The notes: generated by a model not told the origin, from the sequence alone. Positions 4,219 through 29,058 are shown, numbered from the stretch's first letter. The stretch is 64,000 nt of DNA from an uncultured bacterium (GCA_963749445.1 CAVVMJ010000010.1:254021-318020), one strand, 5' to 3'. A program made the numbers and translations.

Positions 4219-4256
4219 GATCGCTTTTTTGACGGCCGTCAAAAAAGCGATCACTC
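4219..4256. promoter_or_regulatory. 38-bp perfect palindrome GTGATCGCTTTTTTGACGGCCGTCAAAAAAGCGATCAC. It may be an operator, or a bidirectional terminator
   Basis: The perfect dyad can be read directly. It shares the core TGACGGCCGTCA with the palindrome at 29023..29058. Confidence 0.5.
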
Positions 4257-4304
4257 AATAAATTATCAATCTATATTAACATTAAAGTAAGAAAGGATAA
4301 TAAG

Positions 4305-4772
4305 ATGAACAAGCAAACCATAATCATGGTTGTAGTAGCAGTAGTGTTCGCAGCCGCCGGATTTTTTGGCGGCTACAAGTACAGCCAGGGTAAAGCGCCC
4401 AAAGCCGGGGCCGCGCGTTCAGGCGCTTTTGCGGGCGGAGCAGGCGGCGCGGCAGGCGCCCGCAGGTTCGGCACGGGAAACGATTTTGTAAACGGCACGA
4501 TTTTGTCCAATGACAACGGCCAGCTAACCGTGCAGATGCGCGCCCTGCCCGGCTCTGCCACTTCCACCAGCAGCGGCTCCAAAATTGTTATCTTAAGCGC
4601 CAACACCCAAATTTTCAAAGCCGTAGCGGGCACGCCGGCCGATTTGAGCGTGGGCCAAAGCGTCACGGCCACGGGCGTGGACAATTCCTCCGGCGCCATG
4701 ACCGCGCAAACCATCCAAATCAGCCAAACTCCCCCCGCCGGCCAAGGCACTCCACCCCCGCCGGGACAATAA
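4305..4772 (+). CDS. hypothetical small secreted or membrane-anchored protein (Gly-rich linker, beta-rich C-terminal domain)
   Basis: 155-aa ORF with an N-terminal TM helix, a GGAGGAAG low-complexity segment and a Pro-rich C-terminus. Confidence 0.5.
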   Translation: MNKQTIIMVVVAVVFAAAGFFGGYKYSQGKAPKAGAARSGAFAGGAGGAAGARRFGTGNDFVNGTILSNDNGQLTVQMRALPGSATSTSSGSKIVILSANTQIFKAVAGTPADLSVGQSVTATGVDNSSGAMTAQTIQISQTPPAGQGTPPPPGQ

Positions 4773-4963
4773 ATCACTTTAATGTATTTCCATTTCGACC
4801 TTAAGCTTACCGAGAAGGAGAAATCTATTTATTAACAGATCTCTCCTCGGCTGCACTCGTCGAGATGGACACAATTTCAAAGGCTCGCCATCCATCGGAC
4901 GGTGAGCCTTTAAACTGTCCGCTTCCAAAGTATATACTTGGGTATATACTTTGATATATATTT

Positions 4964-5440
4964 TTATTTTTTTACAATTTGATAATACACCTCCTGGCCG
5001 CGCTCCCCCACCCGGGACAGCTTTCCCAAATTTACCAGATACTCCAAATACCTAGCGGCCGCGGCGTCAGAAATTTTAAGCGCCCGTTGCACATCACCGG
5101 CGGCCAGACGATTATTGCCTTGCGCCAGCGCCAATATCCTGTCCAAATTTTCCCTGCGCTTTGCTATCTGCTCCGGACTTAATAAATTCCCCGATGTGTC
5201 ATCCCCTCGCCCGCGGGAATTTTTTATTATCTGATAAATCCCAAACACGGCCAAAACCACCGCAGCCAAAATCGCCGCTGTTTTTGCGTTCCACATCGCG
5301 CCGAACAAAAGTATCAACGCGATAGCTATGGCAATCATTCCCAAAGTTTTACTACCCATAAAATTTAACCCAATGTCTTTATATTTTACACCTTTTGACA
5401 AAAACAGTGCAATAAAAAATAGCTTAAAGGTTGCGCCCAA
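4964..5440 (-). CDS. membrane-anchored protein with a C-terminal winged-helix-like domain, possibly a regulator paired with the divergent ECF sigma factor
   Basis: 158 aa. Two N-terminal TM helices, then a helical C-terminus (DVQRALKISDAAAARYLEYLVNLGKL). Divergently placed from the sigma-70/ECF gene. Same architecture as 32917..33300. Confidence 0.45.
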   Translation of the reverse strand: MGATFKLFFIALFLSKGVKYKDIGLNFMGSKTLGMIAIAIALILLFGAMWNAKTAAILAAVVLAVFGIYQIIKNSRGRGDDTSGNLLSPEQIAKRRENLDRILALAQGNNRLAAGDVQRALKISDAAAARYLEYLVNLGKLSRVGERGQEVYYQIVKK

Positions 5441-5487
5441 GCTGAAAAAGGCGTAAGATTTATATTGTAAATTAACTATTTCACTCT

Positions 5488-6141
5488 ATGAAAACAGAAA
5501 GCTCGCAAACTCCAGAAACGGCTTTTAACGAGGGCAACGGGAGCGGCTCGACAGAACAAGAGGCGCCGCCTTTGGCCAATAAAGAGTGCAGCGAACAGGA
5601 AATAATCCAGGCCTTAGCCGGCGTGGAAGCTAAAACCAGAAGACTACTGATAAAAATGCTAAAGAAACCCGATGAGGTTGACGATGCTTGGCAAGAAATA
5701 TCAGAACGAATATGGCAAGCTTTATCCGAAGCCAAGTTCAGGGGAGAGTCAACTTTTGACAGCTGGGTTTACCGTATTGCAACAAATGAGGCGAACAGCC
5801 GCCTGAAAAACAAAAAGAATAACCCTCTGCATTATGCCAGTGGGGAAGGTACGATCGATGAACCTCGGGATCACGGCCCAAACCCGGAAGAATTACTACG
5901 GCAAAAACAATTAACCGAACAAATAGCCCGTGTTATGCGAGTTTTGTCGGAAAGAGACCAAAATATTTTATTGCTGAGGGACAGAGACAATCTGCCTGTA
6001 CAAAAAATCGCTGACATTTACGGTTACGGGTTATCAAACACAAAAACATTAATACATAGGGCAAGGAAAAGATTCAGAAAAGAATTTACGCGGCAACAAC
6101 TAATTGACAATCGCGGTCACCCCGGGAAAAATCCTGAATAA
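5488..6141 (+). CDS. RNA polymerase sigma factor, sigma-70 ECF subfamily, with an acidic N-terminal extension
   Basis: Region 2 (WVYRIATNEANSRL) and region 4 HTH (LRDRDNLPVQKIADIYGYGLSNTKTLIHRARKRF) are recognisable. Confidence 0.8.
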   Translation: MKTESSQTPETAFNEGNGSGSTEQEAPPLANKECSEQEIIQALAGVEAKTRRLLIKMLKKPDEVDDAWQEISERIWQALSEAKFRGESTFDSWVYRIATNEANSRLKNKKNNPLHYASGEGTIDEPRDHGPNPEELLRQKQLTEQIARVMRVLSERDQNILLLRDRDNLPVQKIADIYGYGLSNTKTLIHRARKRFRKEFTRQQLIDNRGHPGKNPE

Positions 6142-6200
6142 AAATCATGGTCGGCAAATAACCGTTCGCCCACCGGAAATTTTTATGGTATAATCACAAC

Positions 6201-6785
6201 ATGTCGTGGTACCAACAACTGCTGGGTTTCGTGAGTTTTTCCCGCTACGCGATTGTGTTTGTCGGCTGCATCGTGGAAGGGCCGATTGTCATGATCACCA
6301 GCGGCTTTTTATTGCGCGCCGCCCAGTTCCAAATTTTACCGCTTTACCTTTCGCTGATGGCCGGGGATTTTACGGCCGACCTGGGCTGGTATGCGGTCGG
6401 CCGCTTCGGCGCCCGCACTTTGATCGACCGTTTTGGGCATTACTTTAACCTCACGCCGCTGATCATTACCAAAGTTGAACATCGTTTTAAAAGATACCAG
6501 GACAAAATATTGTTCATTTCCAAAATCACCATGGGCTTTGGCTTTGCCCTGGCCACGCTCATAGTTGCCGGCATGCTGCACGTGCCATTTAAGCGCTACG
6601 CGGCGCTGAACTTTTTGGGCGGCTTTATTTGGACGGCATTTTTAATGCTGTTGGGCTTCTTTTTCGGCAATGTCTATTACATGCTAGCAGGCCCGCTACG
6701 CGCGATTTTTGTGGCGCTGTTAATAATTGTGGTAATTTATGGTTTATGGGCGATTAATCGATATTTAATAAAACAAGAACTATGA
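6201..6785 (+). CDS. DedA/SNARE-associated (TVP38/TMEM64) family membrane protein
   Basis: 194-aa polytopic membrane protein with the DedA-like core (GCIVEGPIVMITSGFLL ... KITMGFGFA). Confidence 0.7.
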   Translation: MSWYQQLLGFVSFSRYAIVFVGCIVEGPIVMITSGFLLRAAQFQILPLYLSLMAGDFTADLGWYAVGRFGARTLIDRFGHYFNLTPLIITKVEHRFKRYQDKILFISKITMGFGFALATLIVAGMLHVPFKRYAALNFLGGFIWTAFLMLLGFFFGNVYYMLAGPLRAIFVALLIIVVIYGLWAINRYLIKQEL

Positions 6786-6792
6786 CGATTTT

Positions 6793-7518
6793 ATGATATC
6801 CTTCATCATTCCAACGCTCAACGAAGAGAAAGTTATAGAAAAGCTGCTGCGCAACCTACGGGAAATTACCACTCTCGATTATGAAATTATTGTCAGCGAC
6901 GGTAAAAGCACCGACAAGACAGTGGAAATAGCCAAAAAACTGGCCGATAAAGTTGTGGAAAACACTTCCGGCCAACGCCAGACCATTGGCCAAGGTCGAA
7001 ATGAGGGGGCCAAGGTTGCCTCCGGTGATCTGCTGATTTTTTTGGATGCCGATGTCCAGGTTCCCGAACCCAATGCGTTTTTTAGCCGCGCACTGGAACA
7101 TTTTAAAAAGGATCCGCAATTATTTGGCCTAAGCGGATGGGTCAGGGTGTTTCCCGAAATCGAAACCTGGGCCGATATTTTTGGCTACGTTATTGTATCG
7201 GACTGCATGTTTTATTTGCTGAACAATATTTTCCACCACGGCTCAACCTGCGGCGAACTTCAAATCATAAAAACCGAAGTGTTTAAAAAGGTTAACGGCT
7301 TCCGGGAAGAATTAGTCGCCGGCGAAGATAAAGATTTGTTCTACCGCATATCCAGACTCGGGCACACCCGGACCGACCCTAAACTTTTAATCTACCATAC
7401 CGGACGGCGGCCCCGGGCAATCGGCTGGCCAAGACTGCTTTGGCAATGGAGCCGCGATACCTTTCACGTGGCAGTCCTGAACAAATCGCACAGCAAGGAA
7501 TGGACGGTAATCCGTTAA
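6793..7518 (+). CDS. glycosyltransferase family 2
   Basis: N-terminal GT-A fold (IIPTLNEEKVIEKLL, DGKSTDKT, the LIFLDADV DxD motif). Confidence 0.8.
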   Translation: MISFIIPTLNEEKVIEKLLRNLREITTLDYEIIVSDGKSTDKTVEIAKKLADKVVENTSGQRQTIGQGRNEGAKVASGDLLIFLDADVQVPEPNAFFSRALEHFKKDPQLFGLSGWVRVFPEIETWADIFGYVIVSDCMFYLLNNIFHHGSTCGELQIIKTEVFKKVNGFREELVAGEDKDLFYRISRLGHTRTDPKLLIYHTGRRPRAIGWPRLLWQWSRDTFHVAVLNKSHSKEWTVIR

Positions 7519-7545
7519 AAAATATTTAAATACGCACGGATGTTT

Positions 7546-7600
7546 AGTGTCAAGGGTCACCCTTGACACAAAGGGTCACCCTTGACACAACTTGACACAA
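7546..7600. promoter_or_regulatory. operator-like repeat cluster: a 21-bp dyad TGTCAAGGG-TCA-CCCTTGACA plus three direct TTGACACAA repeats, immediately upstream of the M23 peptidase gene
   Basis: Read directly: gtgtcaagggtcacccttgacacaaagggtcacccttgacacaacttgacacaa. Confidence 0.5.
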
Positions 7601-8263
7601 TTCCAAATTATGCCAAAAAAATATTTGTTGCTGGCGATATTGCTCGCCGCGGCGGGGTGCGGCAAAACGATTTTGCCGATGAACAATCCGCCGGCCTCTC
7701 CATCGTCTACGCCGCAAACAGTGCAGCAGGCGACGACTACTGATAAGTCTCCGATGCCCCAGCCGACAATCACAGAGCCGATAAGCGGCGGTGTTTCGCG
7801 CGTGACCAAAAAACCGTTTGGCATTTACGTTACGCCGCAAAATTCGCCGGTAAGTCCGGAAAAATTTACCGGCTTTCACACAGGCATTGATTTTGAAACC
7901 ACGCCCACAGAGCAAAATATTGACGTAGCCGTTTACGCGATTTGCGACGGAAAACTGCTGATGAAAAAGTACGCAACAGGCTACGGCGGCGTGGCTGTGG
8001 AAAGTTGCACGATTGATAAAAATCCGGTAACAGTAATTTACGGCCATCTGCGCGAGTCAAGCATTAGCCCAAACATCGGACAAACGCTGACCGCCGGACA
8101 GCAAATCGCCGTGCTCGGCACCGGCTACAGCAGCGAGACCGACGGCGAGCGCAAACATTTGCATTTAGGCATCCATAAAGGCACAGACATTAACATTTTG
8201 GGTTACGTGCAAAAACAATCAGACCTGGCCGCTTGGATAGACCCGTTATTAGTGCTAAAATGA
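7592..8263 (+). CDS. M23-family metallopeptidase (lipoprotein signal, LytM-like)
   Basis: Lipobox-like N-terminus (LLAAAGCGK). M23 motifs HTGIDF and HLHLGIHKGTD. Confidence 0.75.
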   Translation: MTQFQIMPKKYLLLAILLAAAGCGKTILPMNNPPASPSSTPQTVQQATTTDKSPMPQPTITEPISGGVSRVTKKPFGIYVTPQNSPVSPEKFTGFHTGIDFETTPTEQNIDVAVYAICDGKLLMKKYATGYGGVAVESCTIDKNPVTVIYGHLRESSISPNIGQTLTAGQQIAVLGTGYSSETDGERKHLHLGIHKGTDINILGYVQKQSDLAAWIDPLLVLK

Positions 8264-8320
8264 TTTATGGATGGGTGCGCCAAATTGGACGCGCGAGTCG
8301 TACTAAACATAGACGCTTAA

Positions 8321-8422
8321 GTTGATGGGAATCTTCGTGAATGTTTTACCGCCGGCCGATTTTTGTCGGCAGCGGGATAATTACCATCAGCGGTAATACC
8401 AGCAAGAAGATTCCCATCAAAC
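8321..8422. repeat. TIR-element copy D2 (GTTGATGGGAATCTTCGTG ... AAGAAGATTCCCATCAAAC)
   Basis: Terminal inverted repeats with a compensatory change (GGGAATCTT / AAGATTCCC) relative to the other copies. Confidence 0.7.
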
Positions 8423-8475
8423 TGCCAGGAAACCAACCGCTTAAATCAAAAATCAATTAAAATTAACCAAAATTT

Positions 8476-9768
8476 ATGAACAACAATATGTCCCGCAAAG
8501 CGGGATCCGGCTCCGCCGGAAAAAAATACCTCCTTAGCTCCGCGGCGATAATATTCGCCATTTTTGGATTAACCCTAACCGCTTATGCCGCGCCTTTGGC
8601 CAACAGCGCCAAAGTCACGGGCCCAAACACCATTGTGATCACTTATTCCGTGCCGGTTAACACCAGTTTCGGCGACTACAGCAACTTAACCGGCCAGCTG
8701 GCCGGGCGGTCTTTGACCAACTTAAGCGGCAACGGCACCAACACAATTACCCTGACCTTTAGCGGCTCGGCGTTTGCGGCCGATGCCCACGGCGCCATGT
8801 CCGTGGCCAGCACCACCGTGGCCACCGCGGACAATTCCCCTTATACCAACGGCGACATTACCGTAACCGACGGGCAGAACCCGCAGTTCAGCACTTTTGG
8901 CGTTAACGTTTCTTCCAACAGCTCCGGCGCCAACTTGCCCAAAGTCGGCGACACCGTAACTTTAACCTTTACCACCAACGAATCCATTGCCCAGCCTTTA
9001 ATTACTTTGGATGGGCACGCTCTATATCCCAGCGGCACCGGCACCGGCCCGTTTACCCTGACTTATACTTTAGTCAGCGGCGATCCTTTGGGCGCAGTGC
9101 CCTTTAGTTTTAATTTGACCGATTTAACCGGCAATGCCGTACCCATCCAAGGCACGCTGAATTTGACCGGAACTTCCGCGACGGCCGCGCCAACCACAAC
9201 CGCCCCGTCCACTACCGCGACCGCTTCAACCACCGGCCCGGTAATTACCCAAACTACGCCCGTGCCAGACCTTTCCGCCACGGCCACGCCGGTTTACGTT
9301 TTTACCTCCACCGAAGCCGGCACCCTAAACCTTAGCGGCGATTGCAAAAGCTCGCAAACCACGGCGACTGCCGGCATCAACAGCGTTACCTTTACCGCCC
9401 TGGCGGACGGCGCGCACAATAACTGCGTCATCACCCTGACCGATGCGTCCGGCCTAACGAGCAACACAATTTTTATTCCGGCTTTCACGGTCAACACCTC
9501 CGGCGCCGCCGCAACTCCGACCGCAGCCGCACCGGCAACTTTGCAAAGCGACGGTTTTAAATTCACCAAATTCCTTCAGGAAGGAATGACCTCAAACGAC
9601 GTGCTGGAACTGCAACAACGCTTGGCTGCGGAAGGATTTTCACCGGCCCGGTCACCGGTAAATTCGGCGCCATCACTTTAGGCGCGGTCAAAGCCTACCA
9701 AAAAGCCCACGGCATTGACCAAAAAGGCTGGGTCGGCCCCGCCACCCGCGCCGCGCTGAATAAATAGC
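8476..9768 (+). pseudogene. secreted cell-surface protein with Thr-rich repeats and a C-terminal peptidoglycan-binding (PG_binding_1) domain. A -1 frameshift near 9640 truncates the PGB domain
   Basis: Signal peptide plus a long Thr/Ala-rich region. After the ORF stop at 9681, the PGB consensus (GKFGAITLGAVKAYQKAHGIDQKGWVGPATRAALNK) continues in another frame up to 9768. The T4 run in ggattttcacc is one T short of giving EGFFTGPVTGKFG. Confidence 0.6.
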
Positions 9769-9783
9769 AATTGATGAGTATTA

Positions 9784-9822
9784 AAAACCTCTTTCCGGTG
9801 ACTGGCGGGGAGAGGTTTTTTG
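9784..9822. terminator. bidirectional rho-independent terminator between convergent genes
   Basis: aaaacctctttccggtgactggcggggagaggtttttt: a GC stem flanked by A and T runs. Confidence 0.6.
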
Positions 9823-9826
9823 ATGT

Positions 9827-10621
9827 TTACCTTTTTTTCAAAAGGCTCAACCCAAATAAAATCAAGGCAAAAACAACAATCGCCGCGCCGCTCGGCAAAT
9901 TAAGATAAAAAGAAGTGAATAAACCCGCGATTACGGAAATCAAAGAAATTATAACGGCTAATAAAAGCGTTCTAGAAAAACTTTTGCCGAGTTGTATGGC
10001 GGCAAGCACCGGAATGACCATCAAAGCGCCGATGAGCAGGACGCCAACCACCCGCATGCTCAAGGCCACGGAAATGGCCGCCAAAACCATCAGGCCGACA
10101 TTCAAGCTGCTCACCGGCAAGCCATTGGCTTTGGCCAGCTCTTCGTCAAAAGAAACCAAAAAAAACTTTTTAAACAAAACAAAGGTCGCGAGTATAACCA
10201 CCGCTCCAAACCCGCCGATAATAAAAAGGTCGCTTGCGGAAACCGTGGTAATGCTGCCGAACAAATAAGAAAAGATGTTGACGTTCAGACCGTGAGACAA
10301 ACCGAGCAAAATGAGCGCGATGGCCAGACTGCCGCTCAAAAACAAGGCCAGCACCGATTCGCCGAAAAGTTTTCTTTTTTCTCGCAATTTTTCCATGCCA
10401 AAAGCCGCCAAGGTGGAAGCGGCTAACGCTCCAAAAATCGGATTAAAATTAAACAGCACTCCGGCGGCGACGCCGACCAAAGAAACGTGGGACAAAGTAT
10501 CGGCCAAAAGCGAATAACGCTTGACCACCAAAAAAATCCCCACAACCGGGGCCAGCAGCCCAATAACCAAACCTGCAATAAAGGCCCGGATCATGAAATC
10601 GTATTGGAATATTTCCAGCAT
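9827..10621 (-). CDS. znuB: metal (Zn/Mn) ABC transporter permease, ZnuB/MntB family
   Basis: 264-aa polytopic permease. Operonic with the ATPase and the TroA-like SBP. A Zur-type regulator is adjacent. Confidence 0.75.
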   Translation of the reverse strand: MLEIFQYDFMIRAFIAGLVIGLLAPVVGIFLVVKRYSLLADTLSHVSLVGVAAGVLFNFNPIFGALAASTLAAFGMEKLREKRKLFGESVLALFLSGSLAIALILLGLSHGLNVNIFSYLFGSITTVSASDLFIIGGFGAVVILATFVLFKKFFLVSFDEELAKANGLPVSSLNVGLMVLAAISVALSMRVVGVLLIGALMVIPVLAAIQLGKSFSRTLLLAVIISLISVIAGLFTSFYLNLPSGAAIVVFALILFGLSLLKKR

Positions 10622-10625
10622 AATG

Positions 10626-12322: not shown

Positions 12323-12406
12323 ATTTAATGTTTATTAATTATCTTGTGGCGTTTGGCCGAAAGCTCTCGGCAAAACGCACGGGAAAAAATTATCTGCTTA
12401 TATCTT

Positions 12407-12425: not shown

Positions 12426-12459
12426 TGTCAAGAGCCCGATTTTGTGCTAATATCAGAAT

Positions 12460-12932: not shown

Positions 12933-12957
12933 TAAAGGCGGTTTTTTTGATTGTAAT
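12933..12957. terminator. rho-independent terminator after zur
   Basis: cgccataaaggcggttttttt. Confidence 0.55.
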
Positions 12958-13039
12958 ATTTGTTGCATTTACGCGCACGTACGCATAAATGCAACAAATA
13001 TTTTTCAATAACCTATTGCCGACTTATCCTCTCAGGGAC

Positions 13040-21039: not shown

Positions 21040-21183
21040 CTTAACTATTATCATTACAAATATGAAACCTGCCTACAATAAAAAAAAGGGTAAAAAAAAG
21101 GGGACATGACCCATATATAAAAATATACCTATATCAATAGGTATATTTTTGCTTGGGGAGGAGAGCTGTAACGTCGAAATGCT

Positions 21184-21537: not shown

Positions 21538-21541
21538 TCTT

Positions 21542-21892: not shown

Positions 21893-21956
21893 AGGTCGCG
21901 GTATTTCCCGCCAGAGGCGGGTCCGCCTTTGGCGGAAATTAACCAAATTTTATAAT

Positions 21957-22121: not shown

Positions 22122-22189
22122 GAGTTAATATGTGGCAATTGTATGTATTTGGTTTTTTAAGTGACTTTGCGTCTTAACCCCAAACGGTT

Positions 22190-22768
22190 TTGTACAATAA
22201 TCCTATGTCCGACTATGGCTATGTCATCGTCGCAAGTTGGTTGGTACTTATAACGGTATGGGTGATAGGTGCCTTTACCGCCAAACGCGACGCTTCAAAC
22301 AGATCAAGTATCGTTCTTTCGCTGTTACGGCTCCTTTTATTGGGGCTCTTGATTTTTGTTCTGCGAAATCCGCATGACGATGTGGCCGTCCTTGAGCGAA
22401 CATTCTTTAATTTCGGCCCCGCGGTAAACTGGGTTGGCGCGTTTTTGACCGTTATTGGGATCGCGTTTGCAATCTGGGCGCGATACCGCTTGGGACGCAA
22501 CTGGGGCTCACGTCAGAAAGAAGACCCTGTGCTGATAACCAGCGGTCCTTACGCATTTGTCCGCCATCCGATTTATACCGGCGCTACTTTTGCACTCCTC
22601 GGTAGTGCATTGACCGGAAGCATTGTTGCCGTTGTGTTGTTTATTATAAGCATCGTCTTTTGTCTACGCCGCATCGATAAAGAAGAGCGCATGATGCTCA
22701 GCCTTTTCCCCGGGCAATATCCGGCCTATCAAGCGCGTACTAAGCAGTTCATACCGTTCGTGTGGTAA
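22190..22768 (+). CDS. isoprenylcysteine carboxyl methyltransferase (ICMT)/phospholipid methyltransferase family membrane protein
   Basis: 192 aa. Matches the C-terminal ICMT motif (FVRHPIYTGATFALLGSAL ... EERMM). Confidence 0.65.
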   Translation: MYNNPMSDYGYVIVASWLVLITVWVIGAFTAKRDASNRSSIVLSLLRLLLLGLLIFVLRNPHDDVAVLERTFFNFGPAVNWVGAFLTVIGIAFAIWARYRLGRNWGSRQKEDPVLITSGPYAFVRHPIYTGATFALLGSALTGSIVAVVLFIISIVFCLRRIDKEERMMLSLFPGQYPAYQARTKQFIPFVW

Positions 22769-22818
22769 ACGAAGCATATATTGCGGCTTGGCACGACGGG
22801 CGCTCCCCCCTTAGATGA

Positions 22819-22847
22819 TTGACCAAAATCATATAAAATGATATACT
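22819..22847 (+). promoter_or_regulatory. strong sigma-70 promoter (TTGACC-N17-TATACT), about 150 nt upstream of tRNA-His
   Basis: Read directly. It would produce a leader or a small RNA before the tRNA. Confidence 0.45.
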
Positions 22848-23004
22848 ATTTTTACCTGGCACTTCTCGGCTTCGCTCGAAGCCTCCGGCAGCCACGGTAA
22901 GATGTTTGGCACAGCAAACATCAAACGCAACTCTTCACGATTCTGTGCGAGAGTTTTTCTTTTGTCCGACGTAGCTTTAGCGAAGTTGGATTGTTTGAAA
23001 ATAT

Positions 23005-23080
23005 GGCGACTATAGTTCAATGGTAGAACGCCGCTCTGTGGCAGCGGATACGAGGGTTCGATTTCCCTCTAGTCGCCCCA
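23005..23080 (+). tRNA. tRNA-His (anticodon GTG), with genomically encoded G-1 and 3' CCA
   Basis: Manual cloverleaf: acceptor GCGACTA/TAGTCGC, anticodon stem CCGCT/AGCGG, loop CTGTGGC, T-arm GAGGG-TTCGATT-CCCTC. G-1 pairs with discriminator C. A terminator hairpin and T-run follow (23083..23115). Confidence 0.9.
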
Positions 23081-23221
23081 AAAAAATATCCCGATTGGTC
23101 GGGATATTTTTTTATTTGATTTTTTCCGATGGATATGCTATAATTAATACATAAAGGTTAATTTCAGCAAGAAATAAAAACAAAATTTAACCAATGCGTT
23201 GGAATCGAGCCAAAAATAGGC

Positions 23222-25168
23222 TTGGTTTTAAGCATTAAACAAATGACTAAACCTGCCAAAAAGGCGAGGCCGCTGAAGAGACGGTCCAAAAAAATCGTTC
23301 GCAAGGCTATCCGCAAAGCCGGCAAAACACACGGCGCCTGGCATAATTTTTTTGAAATTCAAGTTAGCAGCGCCATAGCGCTAGTTTTGTGTCTTTCGAT
23401 CGCCGGCACGGCGGCCACCGCTGTCCTGCCCGCTTATAACGAGTTGGCCGATACGGGCCTTGTTTTAGCTTACGCCGCCTTGCCCCATCACCACACACAA
23501 GCTAGCCCGCAAGTGCTCGGCACAAGCACGACAACGACTGCGGCGCCGGCCCAAAAGCCAACGATGATGCAAGCCGCCGACGTTGAAGTGTCCCCTGCCC
23601 AGGACTTGCCCGCTGACGTAGGCGTGTACTTTTGGGACGGCCAGCTGGACAACGTCCCGGCCGGACAAATGCTAGCCAAAGGACAAGAACTGGCAGACAG
23701 TTTGGGAGTTAAAACTCTCCGCATTTTCATGTCGCCGAAATCGGACATAGATTATTCCATATCGAATAAATGCATCAGTAATTTTACCCTGGCCAAACTG
23801 GCGGCGCGCAGCGATTTTAAGGCCATTTTGAGAGACCCGCAATTTCAAACCATCATCATCACCGCCTACGACGGAACGACTTTTGGCAATTGCGTGAAAA
23901 AAAATTACATGATTCCGACATTTTTAACCCCAACCAAGCTGGCCAGCGTCCAAACCGAATACCGCGGCCTGGCAACCTATTTAAAACAGTTCAATAAAAC
24001 TTTCATTATAGACGCTTGGGAGGGCGACAACGATTTATACTGCGGCGACGCTTTTGACGCCACGCCCGGCAGCTGCCCGGGCATAAACGACAGAATCACC
24101 GGTTATACCAAATGGATGCAGGCGCGGGCGGCGGGAATTAAATCGGCCAAAACCGCAAACGTATTTAGCGCCATGGAATTCAACAACGTCCATTCGCTGC
24201 CGGACCAGGGAATGCCGAACATTCTTTATAATGTCCTGCCTAACGTGGATGTGGATTATTATTCCTATTCTTCCTACGAGTCCATTAACGTGTCAGCCGC
24301 ACAGCTGGCCACGGACATTGACGGCATAAGGGCATCGCTGTCCGGCTACGGCAAAGACCCGAGTCATTTGTTCATTGGGGAATTCGGTTTTGACTCCGAA
24401 ATCTTTGGCAAGGACGTGGCGGCGCAAAAAGTCGCGGAAACTATTGCCGTAGCCAGGCAAAAAAACATTCCTTACTCCATTCTTTGGAACCTAATAGACA
24501 ACCCGACCTTGGGCGCGTTTGATACCGGTGGAAATTTGACGGCTTACGGAAAAGCTTTAAGCGCCAGCCTTCCCGATCCCCCAACCCTGGACGCGGCACA
24601 GGGCTATAATACCCAAACCGGCCAGTATACCGATGGCTTTGGTTACGACAATGAATATCTGATTGCTTACGGCAATTTTTCCCAGACCGGCAATACCGTA
24701 TACGTCGGCGGCGTGGCCTTTACTCCCGACTATGAAGGCGCCAACCAAATCAACGTCAAACTGGACAATACCCGCCTAAACGCCGGCGACAGCAGCAACC
24801 AAGTCCAGGTTTATGTCTCCGACGCGGATGGACAAACCAGTTCACCTGCAACTTTCATCCTGGCTCCCGAAAACGCCATCGTTTACGCCGAAGGCTACGA
24901 CGCCCAAAGCGGCCAGTCTTCAGCCGGTTCGGCCGACGTTAGCGAATACCTCCTGTTGTTCGGAAACTTCGTTCCCAGCGGCAATTCCGTTTATATCAAC
25001 GGCACTGAATTCACCCCAATGTTTCAGAGCGGCATGGAACTTGTGGTGCCTTTGCAAAACAGCGGCAAAATCCAAGCCAGCCTAAGCGGTACGCCGGCGT
25101 CCGTGTACGTTATAAACAGCCTCGGCCGCACGCCAGAGGTTACGGTAAAATTTTATTTGGCCAAATAG
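23222..25168 (+). CDS. large secreted hypothetical protein, possibly a TIM-barrel glycoside-hydrolase-like domain (weak), with two tandem C-terminal beta-domain repeats
   Basis: 648 aa. N-terminal basic segment and a TM/signal anchor. Internal tandem repeat (YTDGFGYDNEYLIAYGNFSQTGNTVYVGGVAFTP / SADVSEYLLLFGNFVPSGNSVYINGTEFTP). The true start may be the internal M. Confidence 0.4.
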   Translation: MVLSIKQMTKPAKKARPLKRRSKKIVRKAIRKAGKTHGAWHNFFEIQVSSAIALVLCLSIAGTAATAVLPAYNELADTGLVLAYAALPHHHTQASPQVLGTSTTTTAAPAQKPTMMQAADVEVSPAQDLPADVGVYFWDGQLDNVPAGQMLAKGQELADSLGVKTLRIFMSPKSDIDYSISNKCISNFTLAKLAARSDFKAILRDPQFQTIIITAYDGTTFGNCVKKNYMIPTFLTPTKLASVQTEYRGLATYLKQFNKTFIIDAWEGDNDLYCGDAFDATPGSCPGINDRITGYTKWMQARAAGIKSAKTANVFSAMEFNNVHSLPDQGMPNILYNVLPNVDVDYYSYSSYESINVSAAQLATDIDGIRASLSGYGKDPSHLFIGEFGFDSEIFGKDVAAQKVAETIAVARQKNIPYSILWNLIDNPTLGAFDTGGNLTAYGKALSASLPDPPTLDAAQGYNTQTGQYTDGFGYDNEYLIAYGNFSQTGNTVYVGGVAFTPDYEGANQINVKLDNTRLNAGDSSNQVQVYVSDADGQTSSPATFILAPENAIVYAEGYDAQSGQSSAGSADVSEYLLLFGNFVPSGNSVYINGTEFTPMFQSGMELVVPLQNSGKIQASLSGTPASVYVINSLGRTPEVTVKFYLAK

Positions 25169-25176
25169 CGACATTT

Positions 25177-25206
25177 AAAAACGGCCTCAAAAGAGGCCGT
25201 TTTTTT
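25177..25206. terminator. rho-independent terminator
   Basis: aaaaacggcctcaaaagaggccgttttttt. Confidence 0.7.
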
Positions 25207-25309
25207 ACTGGATGTTTCCGCCAGAGGCGGATCTCAGCCGAAGGCTGACCAGCCTCTGGCTGGCGCAACCAACTTTGGCGGAAAAATATCATTATGATAA
25301 AATGCCTAT

Positions 25310-26227
25310 ATGGCTTCGGAACCCACAATCTGTTTCGGCCAACAACCTGCCGGGTTTTTCCCCAAGCGGTTTTTGGCGGCCAAAATCAATACCGCAAAAA
25401 AATTGCGCGATGAAATCGGCGGCAAGGTCGTCTTTTTTTATCACGACAGCGATGCCGACTATCGAGAAACGATTACGATTATGCGCGACCGAACGACCGG
25501 CGCGGAAGTCCGCTTAAATTTTACCCAGGAAAACAAACTGCAAAAAAAATTCTCCCCGCTTTACTTAAAAAGAATCCCTGCGGGCTGGAAAGGAGAAATA
25601 TTAAAACAGCTTCCGCGCTTTGCCGACAAGCCGCTGATAGATATTTTTACATCCACCGATGAAAAAACCGCAGCCGATTTTTGCCTGGAAATGTACCGCA
25701 AAATGAGATTACTTGAAAGAATTGGAATTTTAAGATCATCTGACAAAAATTTTAGGCAGAAAGCCCAAGACCTTGCCATAGACTACTTTGCCGATATAGA
25801 ATACCAGGGCGAAGTTGTGCGGGCCAAGGTTGAATCATTGCAAACTCCAACCACCTCCCCCCGCTTCGCGGGGTACTCCTCCTTAAAAAAGGAGGAGAGG
25901 CTCCGCACTTCATCGGATATTTCGGATGACCGCGGAGCTTCCCCTCCTACCAAGGAGGGGTGGACGCCGGAGGCGGACGGGGTGGTTGGAGTTCTCCACG
26001 AAGGCGGCAATAAATTTATCCGCTTTCCGATAAACCAGCCCATCCAAAAATCGCAAAAATCCCCCAACCGAGACCAAAGGTTTGCCTGGATGCAGTCAGT
26101 GATAAATTGCACCCACTACATTTACGGCGAAGGCGAAAAGGAATACCTGGATATTTCTAAATTTCCCGATATCAAATTCATTGACCGCGAAAAAATCGAC
26201 GACCCAAGTTATGCATGGTTAGGTTAA
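25310..26227 (+). CDS. BshC-like protein (short form) carrying an in-frame GC-rich repeat insertion
   Basis: 305 aa. The N-terminal segment ICFGQQPAGFF ... VVFFYHDSDADYRE resembles the BshC motifs ITGQQAGL and VFWVAGEDHDFAE. The family-B repeat at 25850..25998 is embedded in-frame. It sits directly upstream of bshB- and bshA-like genes. Confidence 0.4.
   Translation: MASEPTICFGQQPAGFFPKRFLAAKINTAKKLRDEIGGKVVFFYHDSDADYRETITIMRDRTTGAEVRLNFTQENKLQKKFSPLYLKRIPAGWKGEILKQLPRFADKPLIDIFTSTDEKTAADFCLEMYRKMRLLERIGILRSSDKNFRQKAQDLAIDYFADIEYQGEVVRAKVESLQTPTTSPRFAGYSSLKKEERLRTSSDISDDRGASPPTKEGWTPEADGVVGVLHEGGNKFIRFPINQPIQKSQKSPNRDQRFAWMQSVINCTHYIYGEGEKEYLDISKFPDIKFIDREKIDDPSYAWLG
25850..25998. repeat. 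GC-rich palindromic repeat, family B (copy B1), inserted in-frame in a CDS
   Basis: Shares CAAGGAGGGGTGGACGCCG.AGGCGGACGG ... GGGGTGGTTGGA with 28455..28550, and AAGCCTTGGCGA.GG.GGGGGTG with 37985..38075. Has internal dyads (ctcctccttaaaaaaggaggag). Confidence 0.7.
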
Positions 26228-26310
26228 GGATTACGGATTAATACGGATATACAGATAACTGCAGTATCCGTAATCCGTATATCCGTATTAAATCAGTAAT
26301 CTATAACCCT

Positions 26311-27003
26311 ATGAAAATCCTCGCAATCGGCGCGCACCCCGACGACGTGGAGTTCGGCGCCGCTCCGCTTTTAATCAAGGAAATCCAAAAAGGCAACCAG
26401 GCCAAAATCGCGGTGTGTTCTTTGGGCGAGGCCGGCACCAGCGGCACGCCCCAAGGCCGCAAAAAAGAAGCAACCGATGCGGCTAACGCCATCGGCGCGG
26501 AAATTGAATTCCTAAATTTAGGCGGCGACTGCCACATAGAATGCAATCCGCGAAACGGTTTTAAAATTGCCGCGATTTTAAGAAAATTTAAACCTAACAT
26601 TGTGCTTGCGCCGTCGCTGATGGAAAACCAGCATCCCGACCATTTGAATTTGGCAAAACTCACCCGCGATGCCTGCAGATTCGCGCGCTACGGCGGATTA
26701 AAAGAACTTAAAAGCTTACCGACGCACAAGGTCGGTATGTTGTATTATTACGGTTCCAGCGCAGAATGGGACAAAAAACCGGACCTTTTGGTTGATGTCA
26801 CGGACGTGGAAAGGCAGTGGCAAAAGGCCATGGCCTGCCACAAGAGCCAAATGAAAACCAAACAATACATAGATTTAATTTTTAGCAAATCGCGGGCACT
26901 CGGCGCTTCCTGCGGCGTCAAATACGCGGTGGGGCTTTATTCCAACGATCCGATAAGGCTTGATAGGCTTTCCGATATTACTCTGTCTTCAAGAAATTAT
27001 TAA
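26311..27003 (+). CDS. bshB: LmbE/PIG-L family N-acetylglucosaminyl deacetylase, BshB1-like
   Basis: HPDDVEFG metal-site motif and HPDH. Collinear similarity to B. subtilis BshB1 (YpjG). Confidence 0.7.
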   Translation: MKILAIGAHPDDVEFGAAPLLIKEIQKGNQAKIAVCSLGEAGTSGTPQGRKKEATDAANAIGAEIEFLNLGGDCHIECNPRNGFKIAAILRKFKPNIVLAPSLMENQHPDHLNLAKLTRDACRFARYGGLKELKSLPTHKVGMLYYYGSSAEWDKKPDLLVDVTDVERQWQKAMACHKSQMKTKQYIDLIFSKSRALGASCGVKYAVGLYSNDPIRLDRLSDITLSSRNY

Positions 27004-27096
27004 TATGAGATACCAATATACTAATACATGCGAATAATACTAATCAGTTTGCATTCGTATTATTAGTATCATTAGTACCATTGGTATATTAGTATC

Positions 27097-28230
27097 ATGA
27101 CTATGAAAATCGGCATTGTCTGCTGGCCTTCCATCGGCGGCAGCGGCGTGGTGGCCACCAATTTGGGCAATGAATTGGCCCGGTTAGGGCACCGGGTGCA
27201 TTTTATTTCCTACGAAAGGCCGTTTTTGCTCAACTTGCGGGCCAAAAACGTGTTTTTCCACCAGGTCAAAATAAACGAGTATTCGCTTTTTAAATATCCC
27301 GACTACACCCTGCCTTTGGCGGAAACCATTGTCAACGTCCAAGAAAAATATGGCTTGGATGTTTTGCACGTGCACTACGCGGTGCCGCACGCCACAGCCG
27401 CGCTTTTGGCGCGCCGCATTATGAGGCAAACCAACATTCCCCTGCCTAAGATAGTCACCACCCTGCACGGCACGGATATTACCCTGTTCGCCAGCGACAA
27501 AAGCATGTTTTCCACCATCAAATATTCCATTGAGCGCTCGCACTGCGTGACCGCGGTTTCGCAAAATTTAAAAAACCAGACCGTCAAAATTTTCAGGATC
27601 CAAAAGCCAATCCATGTAATTTATAATTTTTATAATCCGGTTTTAGTTAAAATTTCGCGCGAAAAAGTTAGACGACGGCTAAAAATCAAACCCGACGATT
27701 TCCTCGCCATCCATTTATCCAACCTCCGCCCGGTCAAGCGCATTCCGGACTTGCTTAAAATTGCCGCGCTGCTGAAAAAACAACGTAAATTTAAATTGCT
27801 AATTCTGGCCGGCGAGCCGTTTGCCAAGTACCGGCCTCTGGTAAAAAAATTGCGGCTGAATAATGTTTTGGTCAGAGAAAACGTCAAAGATATTCAAAAT
27901 TATTTAAACGCGTCCGATGCCGGCATTTACACTTCGCAGGACGAAAGCTTCGGCATGGGCATTTTGGAAACTATGTCTTACGGCAAACCGGTGCTGGCCA
28001 CGCGCGCCGGCGGCATCCCGGAAGTTATGCGCGACAAAATTGACGGATTTTTGCTCAAAATCGGCGACACCAAAAGTTTTGCGCAAAAATTGGAATTGCT
28101 AATGAATAACCCCGGGCTCACAAAAAAACTCGGCCAAAATGCCGGGTTGCGGGCCAAAGAAAAATTTTCCGCCGGCGTAATAGTAAAAGATTACGTCAAA
28201 CTCTATACCCGTACCTGCGGCAAATTTTAA
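27097..28230 (+). CDS. bshA: GT4 glycosyltransferase, BshA-like
   Basis: N-terminal MKIGIVCWPSIGGSGVVATNLGNELARLGHRVHFIS closely matches the BshA N-terminus. C-terminal GT4 EX7E region (ESFGMGILETMSYGKPVLA). Confidence 0.7.
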   Translation: MTMKIGIVCWPSIGGSGVVATNLGNELARLGHRVHFISYERPFLLNLRAKNVFFHQVKINEYSLFKYPDYTLPLAETIVNVQEKYGLDVLHVHYAVPHATAALLARRIMRQTNIPLPKIVTTLHGTDITLFASDKSMFSTIKYSIERSHCVTAVSQNLKNQTVKIFRIQKPIHVIYNFYNPVLVKISREKVRRRLKIKPDDFLAIHLSNLRPVKRIPDLLKIAALLKKQRKFKLLILAGEPFAKYRPLVKKLRLNNVLVRENVKDIQNYLNASDAGIYTSQDESFGMGILETMSYGKPVLATRAGGIPEVMRDKIDGFLLKIGDTKSFAQKLELLMNNPGLTKKLGQNAGLRAKEKFSAGVIVKDYVKLYTRTCGKF

Positions 28231-28295
28231 TAAAAAATTTTCTTCCGCTAAAATTTTATTACGACTTTTGCCGCAATTGCGGCAAAAGTCGTAAT

Positions 28296-29048
28296 TTATT
28301 TCGTATTCCATTCAATCAACTTGCCTGCCTGAATTTCAACCGGATCCGCTTTGCGTAAATTTTTTAGCTGCTGGCTGTTTAAAATTTTATAGTGTTTCGC
28401 TTTATCCAAATAATCCGGCAGATCCGCCAAATCCTTTTCCGTGGTGCGCCAATCAGCGCTTCCGCTCCCCTTCTTTTCAAGGAGGGGTGGACGCCGCAGG
28501 CGGACGGCTTGTCCTCCGAAGCCTTGGCGAAGGTGGGGGTGGTTGGAACTAAACGGGTGTTTATCGAAAAATCTCAGATCAAACGGCGCGGAGTATTCCC
28601 GCAGCGTCTTTCTGCCGCTGTCCAAAAAATATTCGTGGAAATACGACAACGACAATTCACGGATAGTTTTATATATCGGTTCGCGATAACGCAGCACCGC
28701 GTGGTTGGTTTTGCTAATCGCGCCCCAGCAGCCGAACTGCTTAAACAAGGCCACTACGTGATCTAAATCGTCATCTGTCGAACGTAAATCCAGTAAAAAC
28801 GGCTTATACCCATGAAATTCCAAAATTGCCGCGGCCAAAAGCGCGCCTTCCATACAGTGGGCTTTACCGATTTTTAAAACCTCCCGCGGGCTGCGGCACT
28901 CCACGCCGTCCTTGGCCGGATTATGCCTAATTTTAAACGCCAAAAAATCCTGAATTTTTTTGGGCGAATCCAGACTTTTGAATACTTTTATTTCCCGAGG
29001 TGTATAAAGAAGCATTTTGTGCCTGATTCTGTTTGTGACGGCCGTCAC
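28296..29048 (-). CDS. hypothetical protein with a possible papain/transglutaminase-like Cys-His core; contains an in-frame family-B repeat
   Basis: 250 aa with a GKAHCMEGALLAAAIL motif. The repeat at 28455..28550 is embedded in opposite orientation to copy B1. The N-terminus overlaps a perfect palindrome, so the true start is probably the internal MLLYTP. Confidence 0.4.
   Translation of the reverse strand: MTAVTNRIRHKMLLYTPREIKVFKSLDSPKKIQDFLAFKIRHNPAKDGVECRSPREVLKIGKAHCMEGALLAAAILEFHGYKPFLLDLRSTDDDLDHVVALFKQFGCWGAISKTNHAVLRYREPIYKTIRELSLSYFHEYFLDSGRKTLREYSAPFDLRFFDKHPFSSNHPHLRQGFGGQAVRLRRPPLLEKKGSGSADWRTTEKDLADLPDYLDKAKHYKILNSQQLKNLRKADPVEIQAGKLIEWNTK
28455..28550. repeat. GC-rich palindromic repeat, family B (copy B2), in-frame within a CDS
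   Basis: See 25850..25998. Confidence 0.7.
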
Positions 29049-29058
29049 AAACAGAATC
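29023..29058. promoter_or_regulatory. perfect 34-36-bp palindrome GATTCTGTTTGTGACGGCCGTCACAAACAGAATC at the junction of two tandem genes
   Basis: Read directly. Shares the core TGACGGCCGTCA with 4219..4256. Confidence 0.5.

What the first reader, a model, noticed from the sequence alone, without database searches (positions are those of the whole stretch)
4219..29058. Two long perfect palindromes sharing the core TGACGGCCGTCA
4219-4256 (GTGATCGCTTTTTTGACGGCCGTCAAAAAAGCGATCAC, 38 bp) and 29023-29058 (GATTCTGTTTGTGACGGCCGTCACAAACAGAATC) are both perfect dyads built around the same 12-bp core, but with different arms. Perfect palindromes over 30 bp are rare. A shared core suggests a common DNA-binding protein site (a dimeric regulator, a restriction/modification target, or a recombination site) rather than two unrelated terminators.
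Basis: seen in the sequence. Interest (0 to 1): 0.5.

Follow-up and report, generated by a model that had tools for sequence, protein, structure and literature searches.

The report
Palindromic binding sites of a mini-PaaX protein
The two palindromes are real and belong to a large, apparently undescribed family of about 38-bp perfectly symmetric DNA sites in Patescibacteria (CPR bacteria) that go together with a small DNA-binding protein related to the repressor PaaX, whose own gene is usually bracketed by two such sites.

Summary
The window holds three perfect palindromes, each exactly 38 bp: 4217-4254, 29023-29060 and 28258-28295. The first two share TGACGGCCGTCA, far beyond chance. The same centre, extended into 28-62-bp perfect palindromes, recurs in dozens of Patescibacteria genomes. 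It is mostly intergenic, but also sits inside fpg and a Wzy-type gene at orthologous positions. Arms are genome-specific, and most differences between copies are mirrored in both arms. About 17 of some 60 such loci lie next to a ~180-aa protein with a winged helix and a Cas2-like PaaX_M domain. Starting from that protein, 40 of 44 perfect palindromes in 80 metagenomic loci lie within 350 nt of its gene, often on both sides. The centre hexamer follows protein phylogeny. E. coli PaaX binds TGATTC-N27-GAATCA; the window's second palindrome reads TGATTC-N24-GAATCA. Best reading: these are binding sites of a dimeric mini-PaaX protein encoded outside the window. What keeps the arms symmetric, and what binding does, is unresolved. 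The dimeric-regulator idea is supported; the restriction-modification idea is not. I found no literature on this.

The parts
4217..4254 (.). P1: 38-bp perfect palindrome GTGATCGCTTTTTTGACGG|CCGTCAAAAAAGCGATCAC. It lies 214 nt after the stop of a MacB/FtsX permease gene (2764-4002) and 50 nt before the ATG at 4305.
   Evidence: sequence and perfect dyad; context; as single-stranded DNA it folds at -18.8 kcal/mol, z -7.5
4230..4241 (.). P1 centre TGACGGCCGTCA, flanked by TTTTT on the left and AAAAA on the right
   Evidence: family profile (C at +/-3, A/T-rich at positions 6-11)
4218..4223 (.). P1 outer half-site TGATCG, mirrored as CGATCA at 4248-4253; the two are 24 bp apart
   Evidence: read from the sequence; compared with the E. 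coli PaaX operator TGATTC(N27)GAATCA; inferred
29023..29060 (.). P3: 38-bp perfect palindrome CTGATTCTGTTTGTGACGG|CCGTCACAAACAGAATCAG. It fills the 45-nt gap between the stop of the 6PGD-like gene (29061-29969, minus strand) and the ATG (29015) of the transglutaminase-like gene.
   Evidence: an independent Logan assembly of the same strain breaks inside it
29036..29047 (.). P3 centre TGACGGCCGTCA
29024..29029 (.). P3 outer half-site TGATTC, mirrored as GAATCA at 29054-29059. Together they read TGATTC-N24-GAATCA, the same hexamers as the E. coli PaaX operator.
   Evidence: sequence; review PMC9493321; inferred
28258..28295 (.). P2: third 38-bp perfect palindrome ATTACGACTTTTGCCGCAA|TTGCGGCAAAAGTCGTAAT. 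It has the same layout (outer arm, T-tract, GC core with C at +/-3) but a different centre (CAATTG). It abuts the stop of the transglutaminase-like gene, between convergent genes. It is a probable family member or a terminator.
   Evidence: relatives have hairpins at this position
28296..29015 (-). Transglutaminase-like (weak DUF553 match) gene, bracketed by P3 upstream and P2 downstream. It is a conserved, syntenic CPR gene, not a mobile cassette.
4305..4772 (+). Small Gly/Ala-rich gene with an N-terminal hydrophobic segment, 50 nt downstream of P1; a possible regulated gene
   Evidence: inferred
12955..13002 (.). 48-bp near-perfect palindrome (2 mismatches near the centre) in a tandem intergenic spacer; a possible degenerate relative
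   Evidence: not followed further

Best explanation
P1 and P3, and probably P2, are copies of a Patescibacteria-wide class of roughly 38-bp dyad-symmetric DNA sites. Each site is bound by a homodimer of a small 'mini-PaaX' protein, which has an N-terminal winged helix and a C-terminal Cas2-like PaaX_M domain. I propose the following mode of binding. The Cas2-like domains dimerise over the GC-rich centre (xxCGGCCGxx). The flanking A/T tracts let the DNA bend. The two winged helices read genome-specific 6-8-bp half-sites 12-18 bp from the dyad; here these are TGATTC/GAATCA and TGATCG/CGATCA, 24 bp apart. This is the same layout as the E. coli PaaX operator. In most genomes the protein's own gene is bracketed by two sites, which suggests autoregulation, possibly by looping. 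Further 'orphan' sites, like those in this window, sit next to or inside other genes, where the bound protein would act as operator or roadblock. The gene for the protein lies outside this 64-kb window. Shown: the palindromes, their family, their statistical tie to the protein family, the co-variation of centre with protein clade, and the genome-specific arms. Inferred: direct binding, which domain reads which part, and the regulatory outcome. Not explained: what keeps most arms perfectly symmetric even at positions that vary between copies. My preferred guess is hairpin-templated (template-switch) correction, or a need for hairpin or cruciform formation.
For: Chance is excluded. In reference genomes there are 95 stretches with the centre; about 49 of 60 sites in CPR-named genomes are perfect palindromes of 28 bp or more, while 13 of 16 hits in other taxa are 24 bp or less, and such short hits overall are mostly inside genes. 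One ~180-aa protein family lies next to the palindrome in about 17 loci from different genomes, on both sides in several. Pfam assigns PaaX_M at E 1e-11 to 1e-23, with weak Cas2 matches. The AlphaFold model (pLDDT 85) shows a winged helix plus a Cas2-like fold, and its best PDB match is E. coli PaaX 8a39. From the protein side, in 80 metagenomic loci, 40 perfect palindromes of 20 bp or more lie within 350 nt of the gene and 4 lie in the other ~237 kb. A 38-bp window with at least 15 of 19 dyad matches is found upstream of 45% and downstream of 49% of 73 genes, against 0.7% of 853 control windows. The median length of 31 such palindromes is 38 bp. The centre hexamer (CGGCCG, CGATCG, CTATAG, CCATGG and others) follows protein phylogeny: the nearest neighbour shares it in 32 of 37 cases, and no permutation reached this. 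Arms are 73% identical within a genome and 39% between genomes, and no permutation reached this. One genome has consistently asymmetric arms in three copies, so arms are read as sequence. Sites inside fpg and a Wzy-type gene keep the centre, including synonymous positions, across genomes, while their arms match the other copies of each genome. A/T-tract orientation is free, and G.U-type mismatches are not favoured (3 G.U, 9 A.C, 9 other), which argues for a DNA-level rather than an RNA-level role. The E. coli PaaX operator is TGATTC(N27)GAATCA; P3 is TGATTC-N24-GAATCA. A relative of the source organism (GCA_964474825.1) has its mini-PaaX gene bracketed by CTGACGGCCGTCAG palindromes.
Against: No PaaX_M gene is in the window (tblastn; hmmsearch at E<=10), and the source genome's copy could not be found. 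Eleven long sites lie between convergent genes and about ten lie inside genes, which are not classical operator positions. Many sites abut stop codons, as terminators or REP elements do. Protein binding alone does not require symmetry at positions that differ between copies (P1 and P3 differ at 6 of 19 half-site positions, each difference mirrored). The predicted recognition helix varies among proteins that share the same centre. P2 has a different centre and sits where relatives have terminator-like hairpins. The TGATTC match to E. coli may be coincidence, since other genomes use other half-sites.
Confidence: 0.6

Rival explanations
1. REP-like or MITE-like selfish palindromic elements. The roughly 38-48-bp palindrome would be a mobile unit copied to new intergenic sites by the mini-PaaX protein, with its Cas2-like domain acting as nuclease. 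This would be analogous to REP elements mobilised by RAYT transposases whose genes are flanked by REPs. Perfect symmetry would then arise because each new copy is regenerated from a hairpin or a half-element.
For: Many near-identical copies occur within a genome, for example at least 8 in Colwellbacteria STB_63. The gene is flanked by copies on both sides. Copies fill short spacers and abut stop codons. P2 and P3 are absent at the same loci in relatives with about 65-70% protein identity. D104 is invariant, E107 nearly so, and a basic helix is conserved in the Cas2-like domain. Differences between copies are mirrored in both arms.
Against: No target-site duplications are visible around copies. 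Sites inside fpg and Wzy genes sit at orthologous positions in several genomes without any length change, so they are old residents and not insertions. The protein has no HUH/Tyr, DDE or recombinase signature. The gene keeps its synteny within sub-clades among housekeeping genes, and its paralogues are divergent, unlike an IS element. There were no hits in viral contigs.
Confidence: 0.15
2. Ordinary transcription-level hairpins: bidirectional intrinsic terminators, mRNA-stabilising 3' hairpins or RNase III sites, with no dedicated protein. The shared centre would be a favoured stable hairpin tip.
For: P2 and P3 pass a terminator-like scan (17-bp stem, T-rich tail). P2 lies between convergent genes, where relatives have hairpins. 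P3 starts right after a stop codon. Folding energies are strong. Many family members abut stop codons.
Against: In P1-P3 the T-tract is 5' and the A-tract 3' of the GC core, the reverse of a terminator. Across the family the tract orientation is free. The 4-nt 'loop' is self-complementary in essentially every member, which an RNA hairpin does not need. There is no excess of G.U-compatible mismatches. The window's canonical terminators (23080-23113, 21119-21150) look different: A-run first, with an asymmetric loop. P1 is not called terminator-like. Some sites lie inside coding sequences. The association with one DNA-binding protein family is strong and specific.
Confidence: 0.15
3. Target of a restriction-modification or methylation system, or a site-specific recombination site, centred on CGGCCG / GACGGCCGTC.
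For: The centre is a symmetric 6-10-bp sequence of the kind type II enzymes recognise.
Against: CGGCCG is frequent in the window (59 observed, 76 expected) and GACGGCCGTC occurs only in the two palindromes. No methyltransferase, endonuclease or recombinase family recurs next to the sites. The constraint extends over about 38 bp.
Confidence: 0.03

Closest known systems
E. coli PaaX repressor and its operator TGATTC(N27)GAATCA
   Same: The protein fold is shared: an N-terminal winged helix plus the Cas2-like PaaX_M domain (Pfam E down to 1e-23; best PDB match 8a39). The operator layout is shared: two 6-bp inverted half-sites separated by about 2.5 helical turns. PaaX represses its own promoter Px, as stated in the review read. 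P3 even carries the same hexamers.
   Different: The CPR proteins are about 180 aa and lack the PaaX C-terminal effector domain. There is no phenylacetate pathway context. The spacer is 24 bp rather than 27 and is itself a conserved palindrome (A/T tracts plus a CGGCCG centre). Sites are perfect 30-60-bp palindromes, bracket the gene on both sides, and also occur in convergent spacers and inside genes.
REP elements and RAYT transposases (REPtrons)
   Same: Short extragenic palindromes are dispersed in many copies with genome-specific sequence, and the cognate protein's gene is flanked by copies on both sides.
   Different: RAYTs are HUH/Y1 transposases, whereas mini-PaaX is a winged-helix plus Cas2-like protein. 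REPs are imperfect palindromes with a conserved GTAG head. No evidence of transposition was found here, and some sites are old and lie inside genes.
Bidirectional intrinsic terminators
   Same: They are strong GC-cored hairpins flanked by A and T runs, placed after stop codons and between convergent genes.
   Different: Here the tract orientation is often inverted, the loop is always self-complementary, perfect symmetry extends to 38 bp or more, some sites are inside coding sequence, and there is a specific link to a DNA-binding protein.
Cas2 in the Cas1-Cas2 integrase
   Same: The ferredoxin-like Cas2 fold is shared. From my own knowledge, not tested here, a Cas2 dimer sits on the central duplex of a prespacer of about 23 bp, which resembles the proposed role over the 24-bp spacer.
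   Different: No cas1, CRISPR array or other cas gene is nearby, so the database label 'CRISPR-associated endonuclease Cas2' for these proteins is very likely a misannotation.

Membership tests
PaaX-type repressor/operator pair | Protein with an N-terminal winged helix and the PaaX_M (Cas2-like) domain | tested here: inconclusive
   Met for the proteins next to homologous palindromes in other genomes. No such gene is in this window, and the source genome's copy was not found.
PaaX-type repressor/operator pair | Operator made of two 6-bp inverted repeats about 27 bp apart (TGATTC N27 GAATCA) | tested here: met
   P3 is TGATTC-N24-GAATCA and P1 is TGATCG-N24-CGATCA. The spacer is 3 bp shorter.
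PaaX-type repressor/operator pair | C-terminal effector-binding domain, phenylacetyl-CoA response and paa genes | tested here: not met
   The proteins are about 170-200 aa with only PaaX_M. NCBIfam PaaX scores are 27-45 bits against a cut-off of 264. The neighbours are housekeeping genes.
PaaX-type repressor/operator pair | Site at the regulator's own gene (autoregulation) | tested here: met
   Dyad elements lie within 150 nt upstream in 45-70% of 73 genes (at least 15 or at least 13 of 19 matches), against 0.7-5.7% of controls (examples). This shows position only, not regulation.
REP/RAYT (REPtron) | Cognate HUH/Y1 (IS200/IS605-like) transposase | tested here: not met
   Pfam and NCBIfam give only PaaX_M and Cas2, and there is no invariant His-U-His or Tyr.
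REP/RAYT (REPtron) | Protein gene flanked by the repeats, with many extragenic copies of genome-specific sequence | tested here: met
Intrinsic terminator | GC-rich stem, 3-8-nt loop, then a U-run | tested here: inconclusive
   P2 and P3 pass a loose scan and P1 does not. In all three the T-tract precedes the GC core and the A-tract follows it.
Intrinsic terminator | RNA-level constraint: G.U pairs tolerated, loop sequence free | tested here: not met
   Mismatches next to mini-PaaX genes were 3 G.U, 9 A.C and 9 other. The central 4 nt are self-complementary in every perfect member listed.
CRISPR-Cas adaptation module (Cas2) | Adjacent cas1 or other cas genes and a CRISPR array | tested here: not met
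   Neighbour clustering shows aminoacyl-tRNA synthetases, SmpB, TsaD, MurF, ComEC, RNase HII and similar genes, and no cas genes.
MITE / IS-derived element | Target-site duplication and presence/absence polymorphism | tested here: inconclusive
   No duplications are seen flanking copies. Sites are absent at P2/P3 loci in relatives of 65-70% identity, but no close strains were available.
Restriction-modification target | Avoidance of the recognition site and linked R-M genes | tested here: not met
   CGGCCG occurs 59 times against 76 expected. No R-M genes recur near the sites.

The most novel reading that the evidence does not exclude
Patescibacteria carry a so far undescribed genome-wide system. 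A Cas2-like/winged-helix protein family, comprising thousands of clusters and widely mislabelled as Cas2, recognises 38-bp perfect palindromes and may help keep them symmetric. These palindromes bracket its own gene, punctuate other genes, and even override protein-coding sequence in fpg and a Wzy-type gene. Their arms evolve in concert within each genome. On this reading the system is a domesticated palindromic-element system that is neither a classical regulon nor a REPtron. It would involve a DNA-templated symmetrising step through a hairpin or cruciform intermediate, or template switching at a protein roadblock.
Probability: 0.3. Interest if true: 0.85.

Novelty: new variant of a known kind. 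Interest (0 to 1): 0.7.

Why it matters
CPR/Patescibacteria have tiny genomes, and very little is known about how they regulate their genes. A protein family with at least 5,487 clusters at 50% identity now has a predicted DNA target that can be read directly from sequence. This gives a testable handle on regulation, or on chromosome organisation, in this radiation. It also corrects a common misannotation, because these proteins are often labelled 'CRISPR-associated endonuclease Cas2'. The perfect symmetry is unusual for bacterial DNA: it persists while the arm sequences change, even inside coding genes, and it raises a concrete question about how arm symmetry is maintained. There is a practical point too. 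These palindromes break de Bruijn assemblies; Logan contigs end inside them. That fragments CPR genome bins at precisely these loci.

Tried and rejected
Chance was rejected.

Known RNA families: only tRNAs reach threshold in the window, and only sub-threshold miRNA-like hairpin matches fall at P1.

A mobile cassette reading of the gene between P3 and P2 was rejected. It is a conserved, syntenic CPR gene with about 7,800 homologues.

A fixed 38-bp unit was rejected as a strict rule, since family lengths run from 28 to 62 bp. However, 38 bp is the median.

A CRP-like site (TGTGA-N6-TCACA fits P3 only), a matS-like site, a parS-like site and a DNA-uptake sequence were considered from memory and dropped. 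The position next to the core varies (T, G, C or A), copy density is low, and the constraint spans 38 bp.

RNA-level selection was tested through G.U against A.C mismatches and no support was found, although the sample is small.

Target-site duplications were not seen.

Phage origin: 0 hits in viral contigs.

Literature searches for the core, for palindromes in Patescibacteria and for PaaX with Cas2 found nothing relevant.

Extending the window along its 372-kb contig failed, because only short Logan contigs were returned.

The source genome's own mini-PaaX was not among the 120 listed hits.

I did not test whether recognition-helix residues co-vary with arm sequence. By eye, the helix varies among proteins that share a centre.
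Full report
1. THE OBSERVATION

The window contains exactly three perfect palindromes longer than 18 bp, and each is exactly 38 bp.
- P1 is at 4217-4254 (GTGATCGCTTTTTTGACGG|CCGTCAAAAAAGCGATCAC).
- P2 is at 28258-28295 (ATTACGACTTTTGCCGCAA|TTGCGGCAAAAGTCGTAAT).
- P3 is at 29023-29060 (CTGATTCTGTTTGTGACGG|CCGTCACAAACAGAATCAG).

In 200 Markov shuffles the longest perfect palindrome was usually 16-18 bp and never exceeded 26 bp. TGACGGCCGTCA occurs only in P1 and P3, against 0.11 expected. All three share one layout: an outer arm of 7-9 bp, a T-run, a GC-rich centre, and the mirror image of these.

2. CONTEXT IN THE WINDOW

The window comes from a Patescibacteria (CPR) genome. The proteins have thousands of CPR homologues, and the source contig is 372 kb.

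P3 fills the 45-nt gap between a 6-phosphogluconate-dehydrogenase-like gene and a transglutaminase-like gene. P2 abuts the stop codon of that same gene, between convergent genes. P1 lies 50 nt upstream of a small Gly/Ala-rich gene.

Relatives with 65-70% protein identity keep the gene order but lack P2 and P3. They have other hairpins at the P2 position. An independent Logan assembly of the same strain ends inside P3, so the palindrome is in the reads and it breaks assemblers.

3. THE FAMILY

The pattern TTTNTGACGGCCGTCANAAA matches 95 stretches in one-genome-per-species reference genomes.
- In CPR-named genomes, about 49 of 60 sites are perfect palindromes of 28-62 bp, and 5 more are near-perfect.
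- Of the 16 hits in other named taxa, 13 are 24 bp or less; short hits overall lie mostly inside genes, as expected for background.
- The long sites lie in tandem (29), convergent (11) and divergent (6) spacers, often 0-6 nt from a stop codon.
- About ten long sites lie inside genes.

Arms are genome-specific. At positions 11-18 from the dyad they are 73% identical within a genome and 39% identical between genomes, and no permutation reached this difference. Some genomes hold many copies, for example at least 8 in one Colwellbacteria genome.

Differences between copies are usually mirrored in both arms. P1 and P3 differ at 6 of 19 half-site positions, yet both are perfect.

Sites inside fpg (4 genomes) and inside a Wzy-type O-antigen-ligase gene (3 genomes) sit at orthologous positions without any change in protein length. 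They keep the centre even at synonymous codon positions. Their arms match the other copies in the same genome. These sites are therefore old, are constrained at the DNA level, and evolve in concert within a genome.

4. THE PROTEIN

Clustering all ORFs in those loci gave one family of about 180 aa that lies beside the palindrome in about 17 loci from different genomes. In several loci a palindrome sits on both sides of the gene.
- Pfam assigns PaaX_M, the 'PaaX central Cas2-like domain', at E 1e-11 to 1e-23, plus weak Cas2 matches.
- NCBIfam gives only weak PaaX and Cas2 matches.
- An AlphaFold model (pLDDT 85) shows a winged helix followed by a ferredoxin-like Cas2 fold. Its best PDB match is E. 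coli PaaX (8a39), followed by Cas2 proteins and VapD.
- Public databases name these proteins 'CRISPR-associated endonuclease Cas2', 'PaaX domain protein' or 'VapD'.
- Their neighbours are housekeeping genes, with no cas genes, and synteny is kept within sub-clades.
- The family has 5,487 clusters at 50% identity with E<=1e-10.

5. THE TEST FROM THE PROTEIN SIDE

This test is unbiased with respect to palindromes. I fetched 80 metagenomic loci using the protein alignment.
- They contain 40 perfect palindromes of 20 bp or more within 350 nt of the gene, and only 4 in the remaining ~237 kb.
- Of the 18 closest homologues, 16 have a 28-44-bp perfect palindrome next to the gene, many on both sides.
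- Allowing imperfect dyads, a 38-bp window with at least 15 of 19 symmetric matches lies upstream of 45% and downstream of 49% of 73 genes, against 0.7% of 853 control windows.
- The median length of the 31 perfect palindromes is 38 bp.
- C at position +/-3 is nearly invariant, positions 6-11 are 74-94% A/T with free orientation, and positions 12-18 are variable.
- The centre hexamer follows protein phylogeny. CGGCCG goes with the query's clade, while CGATCG, CTATAG, CCATGG, CGTACG and TAGCTA occur in more distant clades. The nearest neighbour shares the hexamer in 32 of 37 cases, and no permutation reached this.
- A relative of the source organism with a 1.21-Mb genome has its mini-PaaX gene bracketed by CTGACGGCCGTCAG palindromes of 38 and 24 bp.

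6. HOW IT PROBABLY WORKS

A review states that E. coli PaaX binds TGATTC(N27)GAATCA and represses its own promoter. P3 reads C-TGATTC-N24-GAATCA-G and P1 reads G-TGATCG-N24-CGATCA-C.

The layout of 6 + 24 + 6 = 36 bp explains the modal length. I therefore read the palindromes as sites for a mini-PaaX dimer. The winged helices would sit on the genome-specific outer half-sites. The conserved Cas2-like dimerisation domain would sit over the conserved centre. The A/T tracts would allow the DNA to bend.

Three further observations argue that the arms are read as sequence on DNA and are not RNA stems.
- One genome has consistently asymmetric arms in three copies.
- The A/T-tract orientation is free.
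- There is no preference for G.U-type mismatches (3 G.U, 9 A.C, 9 other).

Bracketing of the protein's own gene suggests autoregulation. Orphan sites such as P1 and P3 would act as operators or roadblocks. All of this paragraph is inference: no binding has been shown, and the window holds no PaaX_M gene.

7. WHAT REMAINS UNEXPLAINED

Protein binding does not require symmetry at positions that differ between copies, yet about 80% of sites are perfect, including sites inside genes. Candidate explanations are:
- hairpin-templated (template-switch) correction of quasi-palindromes, perhaps promoted by a tightly bound protein;
- a functional need for hairpin or cruciform DNA;
- regeneration of copies from a half-element, as in the mobile-element rival.

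None of these could be tested here.

8. RIVALS

A REP/RAYT-like mobile system is the most interesting rival. It is supported by the flanked gene, the many genome-specific copies and the turnover between relatives. It is weakened by the lack of target duplications, by the old in-gene sites, by the absence of any transposase signature and by the conserved synteny.

Plain terminators fit the positions of P2 and P3. They do not fit the tract orientation, the self-complementary loops, the in-gene sites or the link to the protein.

A restriction-modification target is not supported.

9. NOVELTY

I found no paper on these palindromes or on this protein-site pairing. The protein fold and the operator layout are of a known kind (PaaX). 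The perfect 38-bp symmetry, the conserved centre, the bracketing of the gene, the sites inside genes and the concerted evolution of the arms are new features. I therefore class the finding as a new variant of a known kind. There is a substantial chance that it is something more unusual.

Noticed in passing
It abuts the stop of the transglutaminase-like gene, so that gene is bracketed by P3 and P2 in the same way mini-PaaX genes are bracketed elsewhere.
   Followed up: partly
window 12955-13002: A 48-bp near-perfect palindrome (2 mismatches near the centre, AATATTTGTTGCATTTACGCGCAC|GTACGCATAAATGCAACAAATATT) in a tandem spacer. It may be a decayed member of the same class.
   Followed up: no
window 28407-28520 (inside gene 28296-29015, minus strand): The transglutaminase-like protein carries an in-frame insertion of about 34 aa (…HPHLRQGFGGQAVRLRRPPLLEKKGSGSA…) that is absent from a 66%-identical homologue. 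The inserted DNA is GC-rich with internal inverted repeats, which may indicate an in-frame repeat element.
   Followed up: partly
window, whole: GATC is under-represented (110 observed, about 187 expected from its sub-words), while CGGCCG and GGCC are not. This may hint at a GATC-specific restriction or methylation system.
   Followed up: no
window 36490-36589 and 26238-26291: Long imperfect inverted repeats built from reiterated TACGGAT / TACTGAT / TACCGAT-like heptamers. One pair has 46-nt arms at 83% complementarity, just upstream of the 36754 gene. They may be arrays of binding sites for another regulator.
   Followed up: no
window 1860-1917; 7547-7588; 54660-54717: Other structured intergenic elements: reiterated AACAAT motifs in a quasi-palindrome; GTGTCAAGGGTCACCCTTGAC repeated in inverted and direct form; and 21-nt perfect inverted arms around a 16-nt loop.
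   Followed up: no
window 56613-56976: ARAGORN calls a tmRNA here (tag ADHAHMQSTAAA), but Rfam reports no tmRNA at gathering threshold and the region overlaps a 403-aa ORF on the other strand. It is probably a false positive.
   Followed up: no
L001 (end), L186 (start), L007/L008 (starts): Logan contig L001 ends, and L186 begins, inside these perfect palindromes. L007 and L008 begin at an imperfect inverted repeat 63 nt upstream of the orthologous gene. The palindromes are assembly breakpoints, and many mini-PaaX proteins in the databases come from contigs of only 600-1300 bp.
   Followed up: partly
L016, L025, L046 (MAG AUK254): Three copies with the TGACGGCCGTCA centre have consistently different left and right arms (ATACCnCG versus TCCCCTC). 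The site is asymmetric but conserved, which could reflect a heterodimer of two paralogues.
   Followed up: partly
L185 10806-20525 (GCA_964474825.1): In this relative the bracketed mini-PaaX gene sits directly upstream of a cluster with PrgI, TraC-like and VirB4/TraG-like ATPase genes, that is, type IV secretion or conjugation-like genes.
   Followed up: no
L004 1810-1855 and 3567-3920: A relative has a 46-bp perfect palindrome of terminator type (A-run, core, T-run) filling another spacer. It also has a DUF559 endonuclease-like gene inserted between the 6PGD-like and transglutaminase-like genes.
   Followed up: no
L041, L064, L074, L085 (fpg); L079/L096 (Ham1); window 30448-31056 (HhH-GPD): DNA-repair and nucleotide-sanitising genes recur at or near sites: fpg holds a site internally, Ham1 has one adjacent, and an HhH-GPD glycosylase sits in the operon upstream of P3. 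This could be coincidence or a hint at the regulon's theme.
   Followed up: no
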